Of a stretch of 15,960 nucleotides of DNA, positions 755 to 9,514 are shown in pieces. The first letter of the stretch is position 1; the number at the start of each line of letters is the position of its first letter. The stretch comes from a virus (Duplodnaviria > Heunggongvirae > Uroviricota > Caudoviricetes), in the IMG/VR virus record IMGVR_UViG_2802429240_000004, positions 1 through 15,960 of that record; one strand, given 5' to 3'. Position numbers and translations under genes: made by a program. The notes under the pieces were generated by a model, which made no database searches, had not been told where the DNA came from, and worked only from the letters and a program-made list of their open reading frames with translations.

Positions 755-1535
755 ATTCCTCCTCCCCGCCATGCATGATCTCCACCATGCGCTGCGTCAT
801 CCGGACAAATCCATTTTCAATAGCCTGCTGATAATCAATGATCACCAGCGCCGACTCCTCGAAAAGGCACTGAATTTCAGCGGGGGCGTGAGCGTAATAG
901 TCCGCAATTTTGCTGAAATTAAACACCGTGTGACGTTCTGCCGCACACAGGAGGAATTTCTCAATATCAGGATCAAGGGACGCCAAACGTATCCGGTTGA
1001 TCAGCTCCTGAGTTTTCGTATTGTCGTACAGTTCACTGATATCCGGTTTACCGCCCGACGGCTCATAAACAGGCGTATCAATTTTCGTCGTATATGGCTC
1101 CTCCTCATTTACTGTATCTGGCAAAACATCCGTCAACAGTTCATCAATTTCTGTCGGGCTGAAGCCTGTCAGGGAGACATCAAAATCAGCATTGATTAGG
1201 TCCGACAGCTCCATCCGTAACAGATCTTCATCCCAGCCAGCATTCATCGGCAGGCGATTATCTGCCAGGCGGTACGCCTTTTTCTGATCATCCGTCAGAC
1301 CAGACAGAATGATGACCGGAACAGAATCCATTTTGAGCACTTCAGCCGCCATAACGCGACCGTGACCAGCAATAATTTCGCCCTTTTCATCAATCAGCAC
1401 CGGATTAGTCCAGCCGAATTGCTTAATGCTTTCTACCAGTTGTGCCACCTGCTCAGGGCTGTGTGTCCTGGCATTGTGTGCATACGGAGACAGTTCTTGT
1501 AACGGGCGATAGACGATCTTCAATTTCTCGCTCAT
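747..1535 (-). CDS. ParB-like nuclease domain (ParB/sulfiredoxin fold) protein
   Basis: 262-aa ORF with GAGG about 5 nt upstream of the ATG. The N-terminal region VYRPLQELSPYAHNARTH...NPVLIDEKGEIIAGHGRVMAAEVL matches the ParB N-terminal domain pattern (..DGhHRl.A). The C-terminal half is acidic. Confidence 0.7.
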   Translation of the reverse strand: MSEKLKIVYRPLQELSPYAHNARTHSPEQVAQLVESIKQFGWTNPVLIDEKGEIIAGHGRVMAAEVLKMDSVPVIILSGLTDDQKKAYRLADNRLPMNAGWDEDLLRMELSDLINADFDVSLTGFSPTEIDELLTDVLPDTVNEEEPYTTKIDTPVYEPSGGKPDISELYDNTKTQELINRIRLASLDPDIEKFLLCAAERHTVFNFSKIADYYAHAPAEIQCLFEESALVIIDYQQAIENGFVRMTQRMVEIMHGGEEEYA

Positions 1536-1658
1536 ACAGCCTCGCTTTATGAATAAAAAAGCCCGCTATCGGCCAGTGCGCTGGGTGCGCGGCGGGTGCT
1601 GATAACGAGCTTTGACATTATCGCAGCCCCTCACACTGAAGGGCTGCTGTAATGCCTG

Positions 1659-1766
1659 TTACTCACGAATCAAACGAGCATGCTGACCACTCATTTCAAT
1701 GCGTAAGTATTGTGGCTTGCCGTCAATCAACGCGGTGATTAACTTGTCACCTGTAGGTTTCCACAT
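1659..1766 (-). CDS. Small hypothetical protein (35 aa) downstream of the lysis genes
   Basis: ORF MWKPTGDKLITALIDGKPQYLRIEMSGQHARLIRE, found by manual translation (below the ORF-track size cut-off). AGGAG lies 7 nt upstream of the ATG. No family recognised. Confidence 0.35.
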   Translation of the reverse strand: MWKPTGDKLITALIDGKPQYLRIEMSGQHARLIRE

Positions 1767-1939
1767 AATTTTCTCCTGTTTTAATGCCCCTTGCCGCCAG
1801 GCAGTTGATCAAAGTTCATCTTGATTCGGCAAGATTTAGAATGAATAAGATAAAATTGGCACACGCAGCAGAATTTCATGCTTTCCGGACGCTGGCGCAC
1901 CCTTCATTTTTCAGCAAAATATTCTGCTATTACAGGCGA

Positions 1940-2122
1940 TCAGTTCTGCATACACTGCCGAACACCGTCGACAATTTCACAGACCTGAGAAGCTGTATCG
2001 AAAAGCTGGCGCGCCTTATCCAGACTGACGCATCCCACCAGAAAAAAAGGCACCAGTATCGCTACCAGTGCCCATTTCGCCGCCGTTCGCGGCATTCTGT
2101 GTGTCCAGTGTTTTCTGCTCAT
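1940..2122 (-). CDS. Small lipoprotein (60 aa) with signal peptide and lipobox LVGC; lysis-associated or exclusion lipoprotein candidate
   Basis: Internal start of track ORF 1940..2194, placed just after the endolysin stop: MSRKHWTHRMPRTAAKWALVAILVPFFLVGC.... Basic n-region, hydrophobic core and L-V-G-C lipobox. The predicted mature part (about 29 aa, three Cys) is not proline-rich, unlike typical Rz1 o-spanins. Confidence 0.5.
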   Translation of the reverse strand: MSRKHWTHRMPRTAAKWALVAILVPFFLVGCVSLDKARQLFDTASQVCEIVDGVRQCMQN

Positions 2123-2136
2123 AACACACCTGGTTA

Positions 2137-2520
2137 TCAGCGTTTCAACTGAAAGTGAGGCCCGTCTTTCAGTGTTTTCCAGTCCCCGCCCCATTCGATG
2201 GCAGTTCCCAGCTCTGCGGCAGCCTGCTTAAATGCCTGCGCGATTTTCTCGTACAGAGGCCAGTCCCATGACACCTGGCTGCCAACCCAGGCAACAACAT
2301 CCACCGCATCACCGGTCAGGTGGCGGCTGTTCATGGTCTGGCTTTTCCCTTCCGCGACCAGCTGTTTCTGGCGTTCTTTCGTGCGCAGCCCTTCCGTAAT
2401 ACCGAAATCAACCTCCGTCAGCTCCAGCGCACGGCGAACGACAGCAACCAGCTGTGGTTTAACGCCCTCCAGATTCTTTTCGCTGCGACGACTAAATCTG
2501 AATTTACCCGACATATTCAC
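2137..2520 (-). CDS. Endolysin, peptidase M15 family (L-alanyl-D-glutamate peptidase / VanY-like)
   Basis: 127-aa ORF with metal-binding motifs SRHLTGDAVD and EWGGDW...DGPHFQL typical of M15 phage endolysins. No N-terminal transmembrane segment. Its start overlaps the stop of the upstream membrane-protein gene. Confidence 0.85.
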   Translation of the reverse strand: MNMSGKFRFSRRSEKNLEGVKPQLVAVVRRALELTEVDFGITEGLRTKERQKQLVAEGKSQTMNSRHLTGDAVDVVAWVGSQVSWDWPLYEKIAQAFKQAAAELGTAIEWGGDWKTLKDGPHFQLKR

Positions 2521-2792
2521 CTCAACAATGGAAAGATTTTTGTGACGTTCCCGCGTGCGCGTATCACCAGCACGCAGAACAGCAGGTTAAAAAACACTTC
2601 CAGCCAGCCCGTTGCTAACGGGCGACCACACAGATAGCTGAGGGGCGCAAAGGCATACAGCAGCATCAGCAGCCAGGCCAGCCATGACATCAGCGGTTTA
2701 TGTCTGGAATCACGGCGACGATAAAAAAAGAGCGTCAGCACGATAACCGTGCATAACACCACATTCAGCAATCCGGGAAGGTTACTTAACAT
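2517..2792 (-). CDS. Small membrane protein (91 aa, 2-3 predicted TM helices); holin/antiholin-like second lysis membrane protein
   Basis: Internal ATG of track ORF 2517..2846 (MLSNLPGLLNVVLCTVIVLTLFFYRRRDSRHKPLMSWLAWLLMLLYAF...). The start overlaps the upstream gene's stop (AATGTTAAGTAA) and the end overlaps the endolysin start, giving a translationally coupled lysis operon. Confidence 0.55.
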   Translation of the reverse strand: MLSNLPGLLNVVLCTVIVLTLFFYRRRDSRHKPLMSWLAWLLMLLYAFAPLSYLCGRPLATGWLEVFFNLLFCVLVIRARGNVTKIFPLLR

Positions 2793-3174
2793 TGCCGCCT
2801 CCTCCGCCCCGCAGGCGGGAGAACAGACCGGACACCAGTGATGCAATATCCTGCTGGTGGATGAATGACAGAATCTTCACCGACACTACCGCGACAAGCA
2901 CCGCGCACAGCGCATCTGCCGATGTACCGTCATAACCTGTTTTTGCCGCTATCCAGGCTGACAGCACACGCGCTCCCAGCACGCCAACAATGAACGACAC
3001 CAGAAAATGCGCCGCCACACGCCAGGCTGAAAGCTGCTGCGGCATCGTTGCCACAAACAACGCCCCGGCGAACGCACCAAACACAATCCCGAAATCCGTT
3101 CCGGTAAACAGCCCGAATACCGTCGCCCCACCGAGCGCCGCAGCCGTGCCGGAACCGGATAAGGGTTCAGACAT
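2782..3174 (-). CDS. Holin-like membrane protein (130 aa, 3-4 predicted TM helices)
   Basis: First gene after the tandem terminator hairpins, with AGGAG 9 nt upstream of the ATG. Gly/Ala-rich hydrophobic helices (AAALGGATVFGLFTG, FGIVFGAFAGALFVA, FLVSFIVGVLGARVL, LCAVLVAVVSV). Position upstream of the endolysin fits a holin. Confidence 0.6.
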   Translation of the reverse strand: MSEPLSGSGTAAALGGATVFGLFTGTDFGIVFGAFAGALFVATMPQQLSAWRVAAHFLVSFIVGVLGARVLSAWIAAKTGYDGTSADALCAVLVAVVSVKILSFIHQQDIASLVSGLFSRLRGGGGGNVK

Positions 3175-3191
3175 ACTTTTTTCTCCTGTAA

Positions 3192-3215
3192 ATAAAAAAG
3201 GGCCACTAGCGGCCC
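3192..3215 (-). terminator. Intrinsic terminator on the minus strand immediately upstream of the holin gene (tR'-like)
   Basis: GGGCC-actagc-GGCCC hairpin (3200-3215) followed on the minus strand by TTTTTTAT (plus 3192-3199). A second hairpin AAAGGCA-cctgcaga-TGCCTTT lies at 3234-3255. Confidence 0.5.
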
Positions 3216-3438
3216 GTAAAAAAACACCCCATCAAAGGCACCTGCAGATGCCTTTTGTGTGGTGTTATTTGATGTGCGCTGGGCGTGGCGCAGATATGAA
3301 AAAGGCCCGCCGTAGCGAGCCTCAGATTAAAGTGCGTGGGTAATTGCTCTCGTATTCATAGCGCTGTATTCACCACATACCCGGATTTTTGATATTGTTA
3401 AATCGCCAAAAGTAACAATGTCTCAAATGAGGTAAGAA

Positions 3439-3591
3439 ATGGGTCAGAATAACAAACCATTAGATGAAAATGACAAATCCAAGTCAGCTCCAAAGCCCAA
3501 ATCAACAGAGGAACCAAAGAAGGATCCTTTTTCCGTAGAGAGATTGGTCGTTGGTGATTCCTGGGGAGGTATCAGAAGAAAAAGTAAATAA
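3439..3591 (+). CDS. Small hydrophilic hypothetical protein (50 aa), convergent with the membrane-protein moron
   Basis: ORF MGQNNKPLDENDKSKSAPKPKSTEEPKKDPFSVERLVVGDSWGGIRRKSK found by manual translation. GAGGT lies 5 nt upstream of the ATG. AT-rich context; its 3' end overlaps the 3' end of the minus-strand gene by 20 nt. Confidence 0.3.
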   Translation: MGQNNKPLDENDKSKSAPKPKSTEEPKKDPFSVERLVVGDSWGGIRRKSK

Positions 3592-4141
3592 CAACAGAAA
3601 CCATTAATGAATAAACGGGGGCAAGGATAGCTGATATCCTTGCCTTCTCGAGTCCTTCTCTCAGTCTTTTATTTTCCTGCAATAATTCGTTTGCAGTTCT
3701 GCACAAAGCCATCAATCTGTACCTTCTCAATATGGACAAACGGCTGTCTTTCCCCGAAAAACCTCGCTCTTTAAACCTGGCGTAATCCATCGCAGTAATG
3801 CCCTTAATTGCCGGAGTGTACAGAATATCTGGCGACGCATGAATAATGGCACGCTTATGCACTTTCAGCACATTAACAACAAGGTACACAGCACAAATGG
3901 ACCAGTAAAAGACAAAAACAGCCAGTCCAGCGCCCAAAAAATCCAGATGAGTTTTTTGCGTTAATAGTAAAAATGATGAACCGATGCCAACTATCAGAAT
4001 GCTTAATAATTTATAGCCATTTTCCTTGTTGATGCTGTTTGAGCAATGGATTTCCCGAATGCACTCTTCTCCCTGTTTTTCAAGAAAATCAAGAATGTCA
4101 TCATCCGCATCAAGAAAATAGTCGCCGGGTAGATTTTTCAT
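3572..4141 (-). CDS. Membrane protein moron (189 aa; acidic N-terminal domain, two central TM helices, basic cytoplasmic domain, C-terminal TM helix)
   Basis: Track ORF 3572..4156 trimmed to the ATG preceded by GAAGGA (MKNLPGDYFLDADDDILDFLEKQGEEC...). Hydrophobic segments LLSILIVGIGSSFLLL, LGAGLAVFVFYWSICAVYLVVNVL and ISAILAPVYSLMVSVVIYFFF. Visibly AT-rich relative to flanking phage genes. Sits between the Q-like gene and the lysis cassette. Confidence 0.6.
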   Translation of the reverse strand: MKNLPGDYFLDADDDILDFLEKQGEECIREIHCSNSINKENGYKLLSILIVGIGSSFLLLTQKTHLDFLGAGLAVFVFYWSICAVYLVVNVLKVHKRAIIHASPDILYTPAIKGITAMDYARFKERGFSGKDSRLSILRRYRLMALCRTANELLQENKRLREGLEKARISAILAPVYSLMVSVVIYFFF

Positions 4142-4213
4142 TCCTTCACCAACCACGTAATCTGTAATACGCTCAATTTTACCTGAACGCCTGACGATGA
4201 AACACCATGTTCA

Positions 4214-4243
4214 CCAGAAACAACAAAACCCGCTCGATGGCGG
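4214..4243 (-). terminator. Terminator-like hairpin downstream of the Q-like gene (minus strand)
   Basis: CCCGC-tcgatg-GCGGG stem-loop (4228-4243) followed on the minus strand by TTTTGTTGTTT. Lies about 100 nt past the Q-like stop, where lambdoid phages place pR' and tR'. Confidence 0.4.
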
Positions 4244-4343
4244 GTTCTATTAAAGTTCAATTGCGCTTGGTTCGCCTCGCGATACAGCTTTGCGAAGCAT
4301 AGCTGAATTGAAGCAGTTTATTGGCAAAAATGCAATAACTTTT

Positions 4344-4886
4344 TTATTGGCTTTCTCCACATAACGCTAATTTCATTGGTATATACAGAATGTGTTCAGC
4401 AACACCCAACCATGCGTCAATGCGATTTCTGCAAGTTTTCAAGCTCCAGCCAGGGCGATACTTATTTAACTGTTGTGCCATTTTCAGCTTACTCATCCCC
4501 CGCCCTTCATATCTTTGTCGGAGGATAAAAATCAATCCAGGATGCTCTGCCATCACTTCACTAATTACCCGGTCAATACATAACGCCTCGGCATCAGTGC
4601 AATGGGACAGCCAGCTTTTTTGCTTACTGTCGATCATCTCACGCAAAAATGCTTCCAGCTCTGGCTTCTCTATTCCCGCTTTTTTCATTCTGCGCAGAGC
4701 TTCATTGATGGCTGTTTTCGTCAATTTTTTGGATGCCAGCAACTGGTTGAACATATTCCCCGTCTTACCGCCACCAATATACGACCAGCGCCCCCACATG
4801 CGCAGTTTTCCCTGAATCCAGACACTTTCCAGCGTGGTGAGACGAAGGTGTTCCCCGCTTTTGCCTGTATTTGTTGGGTAAATCAT
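4344..4886 (-). CDS. Putative late-gene antiterminator Q-like protein (180 aa)
   Basis: Internal ATG of track ORF 4344..5006, overlapping the upstream gene's stop (TTATGA). Positioned as the last gene before the late-promoter/lysis region. Contains an MWGRWS motif resembling the RWGxW motif I recall in Q82/QuuD-type antiterminators. Assignment is by position plus a weak motif only. Confidence 0.5.
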   Translation of the reverse strand: MIYPTNTGKSGEHLRLTTLESVWIQGKLRMWGRWSYIGGGKTGNMFNQLLASKKLTKTAINEALRRMKKAGIEKPELEAFLREMIDSKQKSWLSHCTDAEALCIDRVISEVMAEHPGLIFILRQRYEGRGMSKLKMAQQLNKYRPGWSLKTCRNRIDAWLGVAEHILYIPMKLALCGESQ

Positions 4887-5173
4887 AAATAACCTTCCTT
4901 TCTCCAGATTTCTTGTGTGCGAAAAACACCTTCTGCATGCATCAGGCGTAATTCTTCTTTGGTGTAATCGCTGGTTTTTACCCGCCCGTCGATTAAATCG
5001 TGGCACGAGCTACAGGCAATCGCTGCCTGCATATCGTGTGGCTTTATCGCTGTTCCGCACGTTCCCGCCAGTCGGTAATGCGCCAGCACAGACGTTTCCG
5101 GATCGTGATTGCAGTAGCCAGGAATTCTGACGGTGCACATCTGGCCTTTAGCCGCTTTACGTAAATCCACCAT
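4883..5173 (-). CDS. nin-region Cys-rich protein (DUF1364 / YbcO-like)
   Basis: 96-aa ORF MVDLRKAAKGQMCTVRIPGYCNHDPETSVLAHYRLAGTCGT...ACSSCHDLID, with the conserved Cys/His pattern I recall for DLP12 YbcO-family proteins. Start overlaps the upstream stop (TAATG). Confidence 0.7.
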   Translation of the reverse strand: MVDLRKAAKGQMCTVRIPGYCNHDPETSVLAHYRLAGTCGTAIKPHDMQAAIACSSCHDLIDGRVKTSDYTKEELRLMHAEGVFRTQEIWRKEGYL

Positions 5174-6620: not shown

Positions 6621-8450
6621 ATGAGCACTTCCGCATACAAGAGCAAAATTCGAACACTCCAGTGCGCGTTAAAAAACGGTGAATTTGAACCATTCATACA
6701 ACATATCCGTTTTCCATACTTTAAAAATATAGAGCAGAATGCAAGGATCGATTTTCAGTTCCCTATAACGGCTTTAGTAGGAAAAAATGGAACTAATAAA
6801 AGTTCTGTTATCAAAGCGCTATTTGGTTGCCCACATGGTAAAAATATAACTCGTTATTGGTTCACAACTGAAACAGATGAGTTTCCTGACCTAAAACTTG
6901 CTGATGGCAGTTCTCTTAAGCCTAGATATATATATGGATATAAAAATGCTGATGGCCGTTTAGTTGAAATACTCCAAGCGCGTATCAATGCTACCAAGAA
7001 AACAATCGATTATTGGGAAACAAGTCGACCATCTGTTGGTGATAACATGGAGAGCATTTCGGATGATCTGGGTGCTAATAGTAATGCAACCAGATGGAAA
7101 AAAATCAAGAAGGGATTGGTTTTCCTAGATTTCAGATCGGAAATAAGTGCATTTGATAGATGTATGTATCACTCTGATCCTAAATTAAGAAAGAAGAAGA
7201 GTGGTGTATTAATTACAAAGCAAGACTATATCAGAAGCAAATCTAAATATATAAAAAAAGCTTTTGATGAAAAGCTAAGTAATTTAAGACTTTGGGGGAC
7301 GGAAACCATTGTTAAAAATATAACCTTGGCGCCAGAACTAGTTGAGCACGTCTCATTTATATTAGGGAAAAAATATAAAGTCATTAAATTTCTTGAGCAT
7401 CGGTTATTTGGAACCAAAGGAGGAACCGTTTTACTTTCAACTGATAAGTTGAACTATACAGAAGCTTTTGCTGGAAGTGGTGAATTTGCAATAGTTTCAC
7501 TAATACTCAATATTTATTCGGCCAAACCTAATTCATTAATTCTTCTTGACGAACCAGAAGTTTCACTTCACCCTGGTGCACAGAAAAGGATGATGGATGT
7601 TCTGTACTCTATTGTTGAGCAGAAAAAACATCAAGTGGTAATATCAACCCATTCTCCTGTTATTGTGAACACTCTTCCCAAAGATGCCATTAAATTATTT
7701 GTTTTTGATGAAGAAAGTGAAACAGCTAAAATAGTTCAAAATATAGCACCGGATGAAGCTTTTATAGAGCTAGGGCATGATATTAACAAGAAAACAATAA
7801 TTGTAGAAGATAAATTAGCTAAAGCAATTATAGATAAAGCGATTAAAAATGATGAAAGATTAAGCTTATCATTTAGTGTAAGTTATATACCAGGTGGTTC
7901 GGAGACCATTTTAAGCAAGCATCTTCCCAGTTACGCTGTGGTAGAACGCAATGATATTTTGTTTTTACTTGATGGTGATAAGAACAAAAAAATAAAACCA
8001 GTAAGAATTAGTGAAATTGCTGATGCTGATTTAGTTAATACAATGTGCAAATATTATGGTTGCGAGTTAATTATCAATGCCAGTGGTAGTAATGGCAAAA
8101 AAAATGAACAAGAATCTAATAGACTCAAAAGGCAAGTGCTTGAGTATGCATTCAATAAAGTGCAGTATTTACCATTTGATACTCCCGAACAATTACTCAT
8201 TGAAAAGGCAATTACGCCAAGTGAAAAAGAAATAATTGATTCACAGACCTGGAGTTCTGATGATCCAGAACTGTATAAGAATCAAATAAGATTATTAGCG
8301 CAACACCTGTATGATAAAGAAGAAGTAAATGCAGAGGAAATTTTTTGCCTCCAACAAATAATGACCGCAAGACTTAAAAATGAATTGCCTGAATTTATAA
8401 AAATAAGAAAAATAATTACTCAGGCTCTTGACCGTGGTATCATTAGGTAG
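6621..8450 (+). CDS. OLD-family ABC-type ATPase with C-terminal TOPRIM-like nuclease domain (609 aa)
   Basis: Walker A GKNGTNKSS, signature-like AGSGEF, Walker B SLILLDEPEVSLHP, H-loop VISTHSP. The C-terminal region has a TOPRIM-like glutamate (TIIVEDKLAKAII) and DxD (LFLLDGDKN). Strongly AT-rich; opposite strand to the surrounding phage genes. Confidence 0.75.
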   Translation: MSTSAYKSKIRTLQCALKNGEFEPFIQHIRFPYFKNIEQNARIDFQFPITALVGKNGTNKSSVIKALFGCPHGKNITRYWFTTETDEFPDLKLADGSSLKPRYIYGYKNADGRLVEILQARINATKKTIDYWETSRPSVGDNMESISDDLGANSNATRWKKIKKGLVFLDFRSEISAFDRCMYHSDPKLRKKKSGVLITKQDYIRSKSKYIKKAFDEKLSNLRLWGTETIVKNITLAPELVEHVSFILGKKYKVIKFLEHRLFGTKGGTVLLSTDKLNYTEAFAGSGEFAIVSLILNIYSAKPNSLILLDEPEVSLHPGAQKRMMDVLYSIVEQKKHQVVISTHSPVIVNTLPKDAIKLFVFDEESETAKIVQNIAPDEAFIELGHDINKKTIIVEDKLAKAIIDKAIKNDERLSLSFSVSYIPGGSETILSKHLPSYAVVERNDILFLLDGDKNKKIKPVRISEIADADLVNTMCKYYGCELIINASGSNGKKNEQESNRLKRQVLEYAFNKVQYLPFDTPEQLLIEKAITPSEKEIIDSQTWSSDDPELYKNQIRLLAQHLYDKEEVNAEEIFCLQQIMTARLKNELPEFIKIRKIITQALDRGIIR

Positions 8451-8473
8451 TGATTCTGGATGCAGAGGGAAAA

Positions 8474-9514
8474 ATGAAAAAAATCAAAGTGTTTGACTTC
8501 TTTTCCGGTTGTGGTGGAACCAGCCAAGGTTTCCATCAAGCTGGAATGGATATTGTTTTTGGCCTCGATTTCGACGTTGATGCAGCCAGTTCATTTCGTG
8601 CAAATTTCCCGCAGGCTGCTTTTATTAACTCGGACATTAGGTTAATCGACAACAATGCCATAAACAAGTTAGTAAAAAAACATCGTAATGATTACATTCT
8701 TTTTTCAGGATGTGCGCCTTGTCAACCGTACTCTAAGCAAAACTCAAATAAAAAAAATGATGATCCACGATTAGATCTATTAAAGGAATTCAGTCGTTTT
8801 GTAGAGCATTATATGCCTGATTTTATTTTTGTTGAAAACGTGCCTGGAATGCAAAAGTTTAACAAAAATGAAGGAACATTCATGATGTTTTTAGAAATGC
8901 TTTCATCAAAGGGATATAGTGTAGATTATAAAGTAATGCCAGCTGCGTGGTACGGTGTACCACAGACGCGAGAAAGATTAGTGCTCATTGCATCCAAGGA
9001 TTTTTATGTCGCATTGCCTTCTCCTACACATGGGGTTGGAAATACTCCCTATTCAACAGTAAAGGACTGGATCGCTAATTTACCGAAGATAGAGGCAGGA
9101 GAAAAGCATAATAGTATTCCTGATCATGAAGCTGCACGCTTATCAGAGCTTAATTTACGTAGAATAAAATGCACTCCTGAAGGTGGAAGTCGAGAATTTT
9201 GGCCAGATGAATTGATTTTAGAATGCCATCGTAACCATAAAGGGCATACAGACGTATATGGACGTTTGAGTTGGGACAAACCAGCCAGCGGACTAACAAC
9301 TCGTTGTATTAGCTATTCAAATGGACGTTTTGGACATCCAACACAAAATCGAGCAATATCGGTTCGTGAAGCAGCGTGTCTACAAACATTTCCTTTGGAT
9401 TATAAATTTATTGGTTCTTTGCAATCTCGGGCTCGTCAAATAGGAAATGCGGTCCCTCCGAAGATGTCTGAAACGATTGGAAAACATTTGCTTAATATAA
9501 TCAAAGCCTCCTAG
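8474..9514 (+). CDS. DNA (cytosine-5)-methyltransferase
   Basis: Motif I FDFFSGCGG, motif IV catalytic GCAPCQPYS, motif VI ENV, motif VIII QTRERLVLIA, motif X IGNAVPP; variable region between VIII and IX. GAGGGA precedes the ATG at 8474; alternatively starts at the GTG at 8450 overlapping the upstream TAG. Operon with the ATPase gene. Confidence 0.85.
   Translation: MKKIKVFDFFSGCGGTSQGFHQAGMDIVFGLDFDVDAASSFRANFPQAAFINSDIRLIDNNAINKLVKKHRNDYILFSGCAPCQPYSKQNSNKKNDDPRLDLLKEFSRFVEHYMPDFIFVENVPGMQKFNKNEGTFMMFLEMLSSKGYSVDYKVMPAAWYGVPQTRERLVLIASKDFYVALPSPTHGVGNTPYSTVKDWIANLPKIEAGEKHNSIPDHEAARLSELNLRRIKCTPEGGSREFWPDELILECHRNHKGHTDVYGRLSWDKPASGLTTRCISYSNGRFGHPTQNRAISVREAACLQTFPLDYKFIGSLQSRARQIGNAVPPKMSETIGKHLLNIIKAS

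What the first reader, a model, noticed from the sequence alone, without database searches (positions are those of the whole stretch)
1659..3174. Lysis cassette with two membrane proteins, an M15 peptidase endolysin and a lone small lipoprotein, but no recognisable i-spanin
Seen in sequence: four translationally coupled minus-strand genes: a 130-aa multi-TM holin-like protein, a 91-aa membrane protein, an M15 peptidase endolysin (SRHLTGDAVD, EWGGDW...HFQ) and a 60-aa lipoprotein (lipobox LVGC). The lipoprotein's mature part is short, Cys-containing and not proline-rich, and no Rz-like ORF (N-terminal TM plus periplasmic coiled coil) overlaps or precedes it. A further 35-aa ORF with a strong RBS follows. 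Established knowledge: lambdoid cassettes are usually holin, endolysin, then Rz with embedded or adjacent Rz1. Inference: the lipoprotein may be a non-canonical outer-membrane disruptor or an exclusion lipoprotein (Cor-like) rather than a spanin, and the second membrane protein may be an antiholin.
Basis: partly seen in the sequence, partly recalled or inferred. Interest (0 to 1): 0.45.

Follow-up and report, generated by a model that had tools for sequence, protein, structure and literature searches.

The report
Phage lysis cassette with orphan lipoprotein
A prophage lysis gene cluster has, where phages normally carry a two-protein outer-membrane breaker, one tiny conserved lipoprotein with no partner, so it may break the outer membrane in an undescribed way.

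Summary
The minus strand carries a late-operon lysis cassette: Phage_holin_8 protein (2782-3174), Phage_holin_3_7 protein (2517-2792), ChiX/T5-type M15 L-Ala-D-Glu endolysin (2137-2514), a 60-aa lipoprotein (1940-2122, PHROG 7528, unknown function) and a 35-aa ORF (1659-1766).

The lipoprotein is a real gene under purifying selection (dN/dS 0.16). Its ATG is invariant in 91 of 91 loci. It always sits directly after the endolysin, in all four combinations of two holin types and two endolysin types, and in phages with different tails.

I found no i-spanin in the window, in 88 related loci, or in two complete phage genomes. At least 42 of 80 more distant homologues of the same endolysin are followed by a canonical i-spanin.

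SpaninDB (Kongari 2018) lists the phiP27 homologue as an o-spanin paired with a 64-aa i-spanin. That partner is a TTG-start ORF antisense to a conserved gene, inside a phiP27-specific insertion. It is almost certainly an artefact.

Best reading: an orphan, o-spanin-like outer-membrane lipoprotein that performs the outer-membrane step of lysis without a phage partner. The mechanism is unproven. A Cor-like exclusion role is disfavoured. The antiholin idea is untestable here.

The parts
2782..3174 (-). 130-aa, about 4-TM protein of Pfam Phage_holin_8 / phrog_198 (holin or holin partner). It is the first gene of the cassette and has an AGGAGA RBS.
   Evidence: It is always paired with the next gene in 77-81 of 88 related loci.
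2517..2792 (-). 91-aa, 3-TM protein of Pfam Phage_holin_3_7 / phrog_217 (class I-like holin). Its start overlaps the end of the previous gene by 11 nt.
2137..2514 (-). 125-aa soluble M15 L-alanyl-D-glutamate endopeptidase endolysin of the ChiX/T5 type (alternative GTG start at 2520). Zinc-ligand motifs SRH..D and GPH are present.
1940..2122 (-). 60-aa prolipoprotein (phrog_7528). The signal peptide is codons 1-30 (2033-2122) with a long basic n-region, and the lipobox is LVGC. The mature product is a 30-residue peptide CVSLDKARQLFDTASQVCEIVDGVRQCMQN (1943-2032), predicted helical, with invariant Cys48 and Cys57. Residue +2 is Val, so outer-membrane sorting is predicted.
1659..1766 (-). 35-aa ORF with a strong RBS (phrog_8025, unknown function, no TM). 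It is present in only about 12 of 88 related loci and is probably not part of the lysis function.
4344..5006 (-). Context: Q-like late antiterminator (DUF1133 / Phage_antitermQ). It is followed by a terminator-like hairpin at 4221-4252. This places the cassette in the late operon.
3200..3215 (-). Terminator-like hairpin plus T-run just upstream of the first holin gene. There is a second one at 3302-3323. The late transcript must read through both.

Best explanation
This is the late-operon lysis cassette of a Rac/lambdoid E. coli prophage. The holin pair permeabilises the inner membrane and releases a soluble M15 L-Ala-D-Glu endopeptidase, which degrades the wall.

The gene in the position normally held by Rz/Rz1 encodes a 60-aa prolipoprotein. 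It is processed to a 30-residue, helical, disulfide-capable lipopeptide anchored in the inner leaflet of the outer membrane. I propose that this lipoprotein carries out the outer-membrane step of lysis without any phage-encoded inner-membrane partner.

The mechanism I think most likely is that it accumulates in the outer membrane during late expression and weakens it. It could do so directly, as a disulfide-linked helical oligomer, or through a host factor, as colicin lysis lipoproteins do through phospholipase PldA. The outer membrane would then fail once the wall is gone.

Shown: gene reality, lipoprotein features, late-operon position, constant placement after the endolysin, and absence of an i-spanin. 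Inferred: outer-membrane localisation (the +2 rule), disulfide bonding, the lysis role and the mechanism.
For: 1. Position.
- The lipoprotein follows the endolysin by 9-17 nt in 38 of 88 loci. In the rest it is separated only by small inserted genes.
- In lambda-like loci the order is holins, endolysin, (p57), lipoprotein, bor on the opposite strand, Nu1. That is exactly the Rz/Rz1 slot.

2. Modularity. It is found with Phage_holin_8 + Phage_holin_3_7 + M15 (window), the same holins + GH108 (L014), lambda-S holin + M15 (L083-L086) and lambda-S holin + GH108 (L172, L173). No holin or endolysin is therefore a fixed partner.

3. No i-spanin.
- None in the window.
- None in ORF clusters within about 2 kb either side of the lipoprotein in 88 loci, and no lambda Rz/Rz1 hits there.
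- None in the complete genomes of phages pPE4 and phiSTEC1575-Stx2k.

4. Contrast. At least 42 of 80 more distant homologues of the same endolysin are followed by an i-spanin, often starting right at the endolysin stop and usually with an overlapped or embedded o-spanin. The two o-spanins tested match phrog_456 'Rz-like spanin' at E 5e-19 and 1e-20, so the detectors do work.

5. Selection. dN/dS is 0.16 overall and 0.11-0.13 for the mature part. The lipobox Cys and two further Cys are invariant across both subfamilies.

6. Expression. No promoter-like site lies in 1400-4400. Q and terminators lie upstream.

7. SpaninDB independently classed the phiP27 homologue as an o-spanin (PMC6139136).
Against: - There is no experimental evidence for any member of the family.
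- The mature part is only 30 residues (about 4.5 nm as a helix). It cannot bridge the periplasm and has no known way to sense wall degradation.
- It is not cationic (net charge about 0) and only moderately amphipathic (hydrophobic moment 0.2-0.44, z 0.3-2.6), so it is unlike the disruptin gp28.
- It has no detectable homology to o-spanins (hhalign probability 25%, lipobox region only) or to colicin lysis proteins.
- About 13-15% of phages of Gram-negative hosts have no identifiable spanin. The outer-membrane step may simply be missing here, with the lipoprotein doing something else.
- In about 45% of loci small TM proteins (phrog_4493/1115, phrog_4906) sit between the endolysin and the lipoprotein. 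They could be partners that this window has lost.
Confidence: 0.5

Rival explanations
1. It is the o-spanin half of a genuine two-component spanin whose inner-membrane partner goes unrecognised. Candidates are the small TM proteins p57/p67 (phrog_4493/1115) or p44 (phrog_4906) that precede it in many relatives. This window would then have lost the partner and be defective in the outer-membrane step.
For: - SpaninDB lists the phiP27 pair as a 'separated' two-component spanin.
- p57/p67 directly precedes the lipoprotein, 1 nt apart, in about 40 of 88 loci. p44 does so in 17.
- Nested or hidden spanin genes have been missed before, for example in LambdaSo.
Against: - The SpaninDB i-spanin has a TTG start, matches no PHROG and lies inside a 489-bp phiP27-specific insertion.
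- It is antisense to a 90-aa gene that matches phrog_36812 (E 5e-20).
- L023 keeps a 45%-identical homologue of that antisense gene but has no i-spanin ORF.
- p57/p67 and p44 have at most about 12 residues beyond their TM segments. Neither has a periplasmic coiled-coil domain.
- The direct endolysin-lipoprotein junction occurs in the main family and in both divergent branches, 41-66% identical (L083-L086, L091, L171-L173). The minimal form is therefore old and maintained under purifying selection.
Confidence: 0.12
2. It is a moron or exclusion lipoprotein (Cor-, Llp- or Bor-like). It would block a receptor or alter the host surface and play no part in lysis. These phages would then simply lack an outer-membrane disruptor.
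For: - It is a small Cys-containing outer-membrane lipoprotein, like T5 Llp and Cor (my own knowledge of those proteins).
- The endolysin-lipoprotein junction is a hotspot for inserted accessory genes: KilA-N in pPE4, a 90-aa gene in phiP27 and a 93-aa gene in the Stx2k phage.
- A minority of phages lack spanins.
Against: - It co-varies with the lysis module, not with tail or receptor-binding genes. It occurs in myoviruses with baseplates and tail fibres and in lambda-J siphoviruses.
- It is on the same strand as the endolysin and 14 nt downstream, with no promoter-like site.
- The L014-type loci carry Bor as well.
- It has no Pfam, NCBIfam or PADLOC hit.
Confidence: 0.18
3. Homotypic 'self-spanin'. 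The unusually long, basic signal peptide slows processing, so unprocessed signal-anchored precursor in the inner membrane and mature lipoprotein in the outer membrane pair through their helices and invariant cysteines. One gene would supply both halves of a spanin.
For: - The signal peptide is 30 residues with a 16-17-residue, highly basic n-region. That n-region is under purifying selection (codons 2-9 dN/dS 0.14; ATG invariant in 91 of 91 loci).
- Two periplasmic Cys are invariant, and hydrophobic residues follow a heptad pattern at mature positions 7, 10, 14, 17, 21, 24 and 28 in both subfamilies.
- No other partner exists.
Against: - This is pure inference.
- Two 30-residue segments give at most about 9 nm as helices, less than the usual periplasmic width.
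- The n-region sequence is not conserved in the most divergent members.
- The AlphaFold2 model is low-confidence (pLDDT 65) and monomeric.
Confidence: 0.1

Closest known systems
Two-component spanins (lambda Rz/Rz1 and other o-spanin families; SpaninDB, Kongari et al. 2018, PMC6139136)
   Same: - It is an outer-membrane-type lipoprotein encoded immediately after the endolysin in the late operon.
- It has invariant periplasmic cysteines.
- Its phiP27 homologue is already listed as a singleton o-spanin family.
   Different: - It has no i-spanin partner. The one listed for phiP27 is an antisense artefact.
- The mature part is only 30 residues, the shortest in SpaninDB.
- It has no profile similarity to any o-spanin family.
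- Spanin function as understood requires a complex that spans the periplasm.
Colicin lysis / bacteriocin release lipoproteins (Pfam Lysis_col)
   Same: These are lone lipoproteins with a mature part of about 28-35 residues. They compromise the outer membrane without a dedicated partner, through host phospholipase PldA, and their signal peptides have unusual properties (my own knowledge).
   Different: - There is no sequence similarity (no Pfam hit).
- The context is a phage late operon, not a colicin operon.
- This family has two invariant extra cysteines.
Disruptin gp28 of phage phiKT (bioRxiv 10.1101/515445)
   Same: It is a single small protein that replaces spanins for the outer-membrane step in a phage lacking spanins.
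   Different: gp28 is a cationic amphipathic peptide with no lipid anchor. This protein is a lipoprotein with net charge about 0 and moderate amphipathicity.
Unimolecular spanin (T1 gp11)
   Same: It has an N-terminal lipoprotein signal and is a single gene in the spanin slot.
   Different: It has no C-terminal transmembrane domain and no extended periplasmic domain.
Serratia chiWXYZ type 10 secretion cassette (PMC4259817)
   Same: It combines a holin with an M15 L-Ala-D-Glu endopeptidase. The window endolysin matches ChiX at E 1e-42. The divergent loci L083-L086 even use the same lambda-S holin family.
   Different: chiWXYZ carries both a lipoprotein and a TM spanin homologue. Here only an unrelated lipoprotein is present. 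The window cassette also lies downstream of Q in a prophage.

Membership tests
Two-component spanin, o-spanin component | Type II signal peptide with a lipobox Cys and a non-Asp +2 residue (outer-membrane sorting) | tested here: met
   The lipobox is LVGC with Cys31, and residue +2 is Val. In relatives +2 is mostly V, A or T, with G, S or E in a few and never Asp. Actual lipidation and localisation cannot be tested here.
Two-component spanin, o-spanin component | A cognate i-spanin gene (N-terminal TMD plus periplasmic coiled-coil domain), embedded, overlapping or adjacent | tested here: not met
   - None in the window.
- None in 88 related loci.
- None in complete phage genomes.
- The SpaninDB partner is an artefact.
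Two-component spanin, o-spanin component | Located in the lysis cassette downstream of the endolysin | tested here: met
   It starts 14 nt after the endolysin stop. It holds the same position in four cassette types.
Two-component spanin, o-spanin component | Periplasmic cysteine(s) available for intermolecular disulfide bonds | tested here: met
   Cys48 and Cys57 are invariant. Bond formation itself cannot be tested here.
Two-component spanin, o-spanin component | Sequence or profile homology to a described o-spanin family | tested here: not met
   - No Pfam or NCBIfam hit.
- The only PHROG match is phrog_7528, of unknown function.
- hhalign against the phrog_456 o-spanin family gives probability 25%, in the lipobox region only.
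Unimolecular spanin (T1 gp11 type) | C-terminal transmembrane domain in addition to the N-terminal lipoprotein signal | tested here: not met
   The C-terminus ...VDGVRQCMQN is polar. The only hydrophobic segment is the signal peptide.
Disruptin (phiKT gp28) | Cationic amphipathic antimicrobial-peptide-like protein | tested here: not met
   Net charge of the mature part is mostly between -2 and +3 (range -4 to +3), and -1 in the window. The hydrophobic moment z-score is 1.5 in the window.
Cor/Llp-type exclusion lipoproteins | Genetic linkage to the tail or receptor-binding module and to a specific receptor | tested here: not met
   It is linked to the lysis module across myovirus and siphovirus tail types.
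Colicin lysis protein (Lysis_col) | Pfam Lysis_col profile match | tested here: not met
   No Pfam family at E <= 0.1. The similarity is in size only.
Holins Phage_holin_8 and Phage_holin_3_7 | Pfam profile above the gathering threshold, multi-TM small protein upstream of the endolysin | tested here: met
   83.5 bits against a cut-off of 26.4, and 78.5 bits against a cut-off of 25.4. Which one is the holin and which a regulator cannot be tested here.
M15 L-alanyl-D-glutamate endopeptidase endolysin (ChiX / EndoT5) | H-x6-D ... H zinc-ligand motifs and homology to solved enzymes | tested here: met
   It has SRHLTGDAVD and GPHFQ. It matches 5opz at E 1e-42 and 2mxz at E 2e-23.

The most novel reading that the evidence does not exclude
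A 30-residue lipid-anchored peptide is by itself the outer-membrane disruptor of these phages. That would be a third class of outer-membrane lysis protein beside spanins and disruptins. It could act as a disulfide-linked helical oligomer or through a host factor. Alternatively it could be a one-gene 'self-spanin', in which unprocessed precursor in the inner membrane pairs with mature lipoprotein in the outer membrane.
Probability: 0.3. Interest if true: 0.75.

Novelty: new variant of a known kind. Interest (0 to 1): 0.55.

Why it matters
Outer-membrane disruption is the least understood step of phage lysis. Only two solutions are established: spanins, which bridge and fuse the two membranes, and one cationic peptide.

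This family is present in about 7% of complete E. coli genomes (390 of 5426 have a match to the cassette). It is also present in toxin-converting phages (Stx2e phiP27, Stx2k), and part of the cassette matches an LT-IIb phage.

It offers a minimal, easily testable candidate for a partner-free mechanism. Toxin release from these phages depends on lysis, so the protein also bears on how Stx and LT-II leave the cell.

The analysis also corrects a database entry: the phiP27 i-spanin in SpaninDB, and the 51-aa gene model for the lipoprotein.

Tried and rejected
1. Hidden or embedded i-spanin. I looked at all six frames, alternative starts and antisense ORFs. Nothing had an N-terminal TM plus a charged tail, and none of these ORFs matched a PHROG.

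2. The phiP27 'i-spanin'. It is absent from the window by tblastn, confined to 3 of 88 loci, and antisense to a conserved gene. Rejected as an artefact.

3. Truncated o-spanin. I noticed a resemblance between the mature peptide and the C-terminal Cys-containing helix of the phrog_456 o-spanins that follow related endolysins. hhalign gave probability 25%, in the lipobox region only. Not supported, although such short sequences limit the power of the test.

4. Mini-Lpp mimic. The heptad register measured from the lipid-bearing Cys matches Braun's lipoprotein. hhalign gave probability 52%, driven by the signal peptide. A matching register has roughly a 1 in 7 chance. I keep this only as a lead.

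5. AlphaFold2 gave one long helix at pLDDT 65. That is too uncertain to use, so I ran no fold search.

6. A PDB profile search returned only spurious low-complexity or coiled-coil hits.

7. The genome-contig scan with the divergent lipoprotein subfamily found nothing.

8. The literature held no experimental work on this lipoprotein. A 2025 Stx2e paper concerns only a holin.
Full report
OBSERVATION

The minus strand of window 1659-3174 carries five closely spaced ORFs.

- ORF 2782-3174 (130 aa, about four hydrophobic segments) matches Pfam Phage_holin_8 (E 1.7e-23) and phrog_198 'holin'.
- ORF 2517-2792 (91 aa, three TM segments) matches Phage_holin_3_7 (E 3.9e-22) and phrog_217 'holin'.
- ORF 2137-2514 (125 aa) matches Peptidase_M15_4 and phrog_465 'endolysin'. 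It also matches the solved L-alanyl-D-glutamate endopeptidases ChiX (5opz, E 1e-42) and T5 endolysin (2mxz, E 2e-23).
- ORF 1940-2122 (60 aa) has a basic n-region, a hydrophobic core and the lipobox LVGC (Cys31). It matches only phrog_7528, which has no known function (E 1e-38).
- ORF 1659-1766 (35 aa) has AGGAG 6 nt upstream of its ATG. It matches phrog_8025, also of unknown function.

Gene spacing is tight. hol8 and hol37 overlap by 11 nt. The hol37 stop and the endolysin ATG are 2 nt apart. The endolysin stop and the lipoprotein ATG are 14 nt apart.

Upstream lie a Q-like antiterminator (4344-5006), terminator-like hairpins and a 194-aa membrane protein in the usual 'moron' slot. No sigma-70-like promoter is predicted anywhere in 1400-4400.

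IS THE LIPOPROTEIN A REAL GENE, AND WHICH START IS USED?

The family has about 140 clusters at 90% identity, all enterobacterial, and 274 confirmed copies in IMG/VR. A profile search of 1.84 billion representatives gave 24 hits. These include a divergent subfamily whose mature part reads CVSLEKARNWFGVAADVCDTVKKIKDRC.

Over 48 unique coding sequences dN/dS is 0.16, and 0.11 for the mature part.

- Codon 1 is ATG in 91 of 91 loci.
- Codon 10, the start used by SpaninDB and many gene callers, is ATG in only 77 of 91.
- Codons 2-9 have dN/dS 0.14.

The product is therefore the 60-aa form. Its signal peptide is unusually long (30 residues) and very basic.

The invariant residues across both subfamilies include the lipobox Gly-Cys and two further cysteines, C48 and C57. 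The mature 30-mer is predicted helical: AlphaFold2 gives a single helix at pLDDT 65, and SpaninDB predicts 83% helix. Its net charge is about 0 and it is only moderately amphipathic.

WHERE IT SITS

The cassette is about 93% identical to that of the Stx2e phage phiP27. It also occurs in phages pPE4 and phiSTEC1575-Stx2k, part of it matches the LT-IIb phage SerU, and 390 of 5426 complete E. coli genomes have a match.

In 88 loci the lipoprotein always lies after the endolysin. Four module combinations exist:

- Phage_holin_8 + Phage_holin_3_7 + M15, as in the window (34 loci with the same 14-nt spacer).
- The same holin pair + a GH108/PG_binding_3 endolysin. In lambda-like loci this is followed by bor on the opposite strand and then Nu1, so the lipoprotein is exactly in the Rz/Rz1 slot.
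- Lambda-S-type holin + M15 (L083-L086).
- Lambda-S-type holin + GH108 (L171-L173).

The host phages include Mu-like myoviruses (phiP27, pPE4) and lambda-like siphoviruses (Stx2k). The gene is thus an autonomous third module of the lysis cassette. It is independent of holin type, endolysin type and tail type.

IS THERE AN I-SPANIN?

Kongari et al. 2018 (PMC6139136) list phiP27 as a 'separated' two-component spanin with the shortest periplasmic span in their database, 32 + 30 residues. Their o-spanin is the homologue of this lipoprotein.

Their i-spanin (record positions 20348-20542) is a 64-aa ORF with a TTG start. The evidence against it is as follows.

- It lies within a 489-bp insertion present in only 3 of 88 loci.
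- It matches no PHROG, whereas the 90-aa ORF on the opposite strand matches phrog_36812 at E 5e-20.
- Locus L023 keeps a 45%-identical homologue of that opposite-strand gene and has no i-spanin ORF at all.

I conclude that the partner call is an artefact. It is absent from the window.

De novo scans looked for ORFs with one N-terminal TM and a charged tail of at least 45 residues, and for further lipoproteins.

- They find nothing credible in the window.
- Both complete phage genomes checked (pPE4 and phiSTEC1575-Stx2k), and the two phiP27 segments I fetched, also give nothing.
- Nothing turns up in clustered ORFs within about 2 kb either side of the lipoprotein in the 88 loci.
- Lambda Rz and Rz1 give no hit in those loci.

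As a positive control I examined 80 genomic loci carrying 54-92% identical homologues of the endolysin. At least 42 have an i-spanin-like ORF. It often starts right at the endolysin stop and usually comes with an overlapped or embedded lipoprotein. The two of those lipoproteins that I tested match phrog_456 'Rz-like spanin' at E 5e-19 and 1e-20.

The lone-lipoprotein arrangement is therefore a departure from the norm for this endolysin family, not a detection failure.

In about 45% of loci small membrane proteins of unknown function sit between the endolysin and the lipoprotein: p57/p67 (phrog_4493/1115) and p44 (phrog_4906). They have almost no extramembrane sequence on the far side of their TM segment. 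They are also absent from the window and from the divergent branches, so they are not obligate partners.

WHAT IT MOST LIKELY DOES

Position, co-transcription, modular behaviour, purifying selection, outer-membrane sorting signal and invariant periplasmic cysteines all point to the last (outer-membrane) step of lysis. No phage-encoded inner-membrane partner is involved.

A 30-residue helix (about 4.5 nm) cannot span the periplasm, so the canonical membrane-fusion mechanism does not apply. I favour a mechanism that weakens the outer membrane. The lipopeptide would accumulate in the inner leaflet and act either as a disulfide-linked helical oligomer or through a host factor. The only experimentally established precedent for a lone lipoprotein of this size compromising the outer membrane is the colicin lysis proteins acting through PldA (my own knowledge). 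Such weakening would be harmless until the wall is removed, so no separate timing device would be needed. This step is inference.

A more exotic alternative is a homotypic 'self-spanin' that uses the slowly processed precursor as the inner-membrane half. The conserved long basic n-region suggests it, but nothing else supports it.

RIVALS

- A Cor-, Llp- or Bor-like exclusion or moron role is disfavoured. The gene follows the lysis module across different tail types, lacks a promoter, and coexists with Bor.
- A lost-partner scenario is disfavoured by the age and conservation of the direct endolysin-lipoprotein junction.
- Homology to o-spanins, to Lpp, to colicin lysis proteins or to defence proteins was not detected.

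- The idea that the second membrane protein is an antiholin cannot be tested here. The two membrane proteins always travel as a pair and both belong to 'holin' families. The lipoprotein also works with a single lambda-S-type holin.
- The 35-aa ORF is a real conserved small gene, but it is present in only about 12 of 88 loci. It is probably unrelated to lysis.

VERDICT

The family is already listed bioinformatically as a singleton o-spanin, but with a spurious partner and a wrong start. Its orphan status across four cassette types is new and makes it a good experimental candidate for a partner-free outer-membrane disruptor.

Novelty: new variant of a known kind. Interest: 0.55.

Noticed in passing
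window 6621-9514 (+): A 609-aa AAA_21/AAA_15 ATPase (best PADLOC hits HEC-04, ATPase-Toprim, AriA, PtuA, OLD) is followed directly by a 354-aa C5 cytosine DNA methylase. Both are on the strand opposite to the surrounding prophage genes. This may be an inserted defence island.
   Followed up: partly
window 3572-4156 (-): A 194-aa membrane protein (phrog_11870, unknown function, no Pfam or PADLOC hit) lies between the Q antiterminator and the holins. The stx genes occupy this slot in phiP27 and the Stx2k phage. The same protein, 98% identical, is present in phage pPE4.
   Followed up: partly
window 2048-2073 (-): A terminator-like hairpin (11 pairs) followed by TTTTTTT lies inside the signal-peptide codons of the lipoprotein gene. 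It could attenuate expression when transcription is not Q-modified, or it could simply reflect T-rich hydrophobic codons.
   Followed up: no
L001 3832-4026 (phiP27 record 20348-20542): The i-spanin listed for phiP27 in SpaninDB is a TTG-start ORF antisense to a conserved 90-aa gene (phrog_36812) inside a phiP27-specific 489-bp insertion. L023 keeps a 45%-identical homologue of the antisense gene but has no such ORF.
   Followed up: yes
L107 (Superficieibacter electus), 21 nt after the M15 endolysin stop: An unrelated lone 63-aa Thr/Cys-rich lipoprotein (mature part CTHTTYTEATRADGSTVKHIAIAPGTKITTAAGGCIDSTSRETTCSTN) follows an M15 endolysin, again with no detectable i-spanin. This may be a second case of the same arrangement.
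   Followed up: no
L014 3826-3999; L053 3504-3996; L088 5291-5464: Small membrane proteins of unknown function sit between the endolysin and the lipoprotein in about 45% of related loci: p57/p67 (phrog_4493/1115, C-terminal TM) and p44 (phrog_4906). They may be extra lysis factors comparable to LambdaSo Lcc6.
   Followed up: partly
L087 19473-20006 (phage pPE4); L088 4938-5219: The endolysin-lipoprotein junction is an insertion hotspot. pPE4 has a KilA-N domain gene there, the Stx2k phage a 93-aa soluble protein, and phiP27 an antisense 90-aa gene. In the pPE4 record the lipoprotein gene itself is not annotated.
   Followed up: partly
PP818812.1 (L087): 'Actinobacillus phage vB_Apl-pPE4' is about 93% identical to this E. 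coli prophage cassette and carries Rac-type genes (RecT, exodeoxyribonuclease VIII, Kil, DicA, YdaT). The stated host looks doubtful, and it may be an induced E. coli prophage.
   Followed up: no
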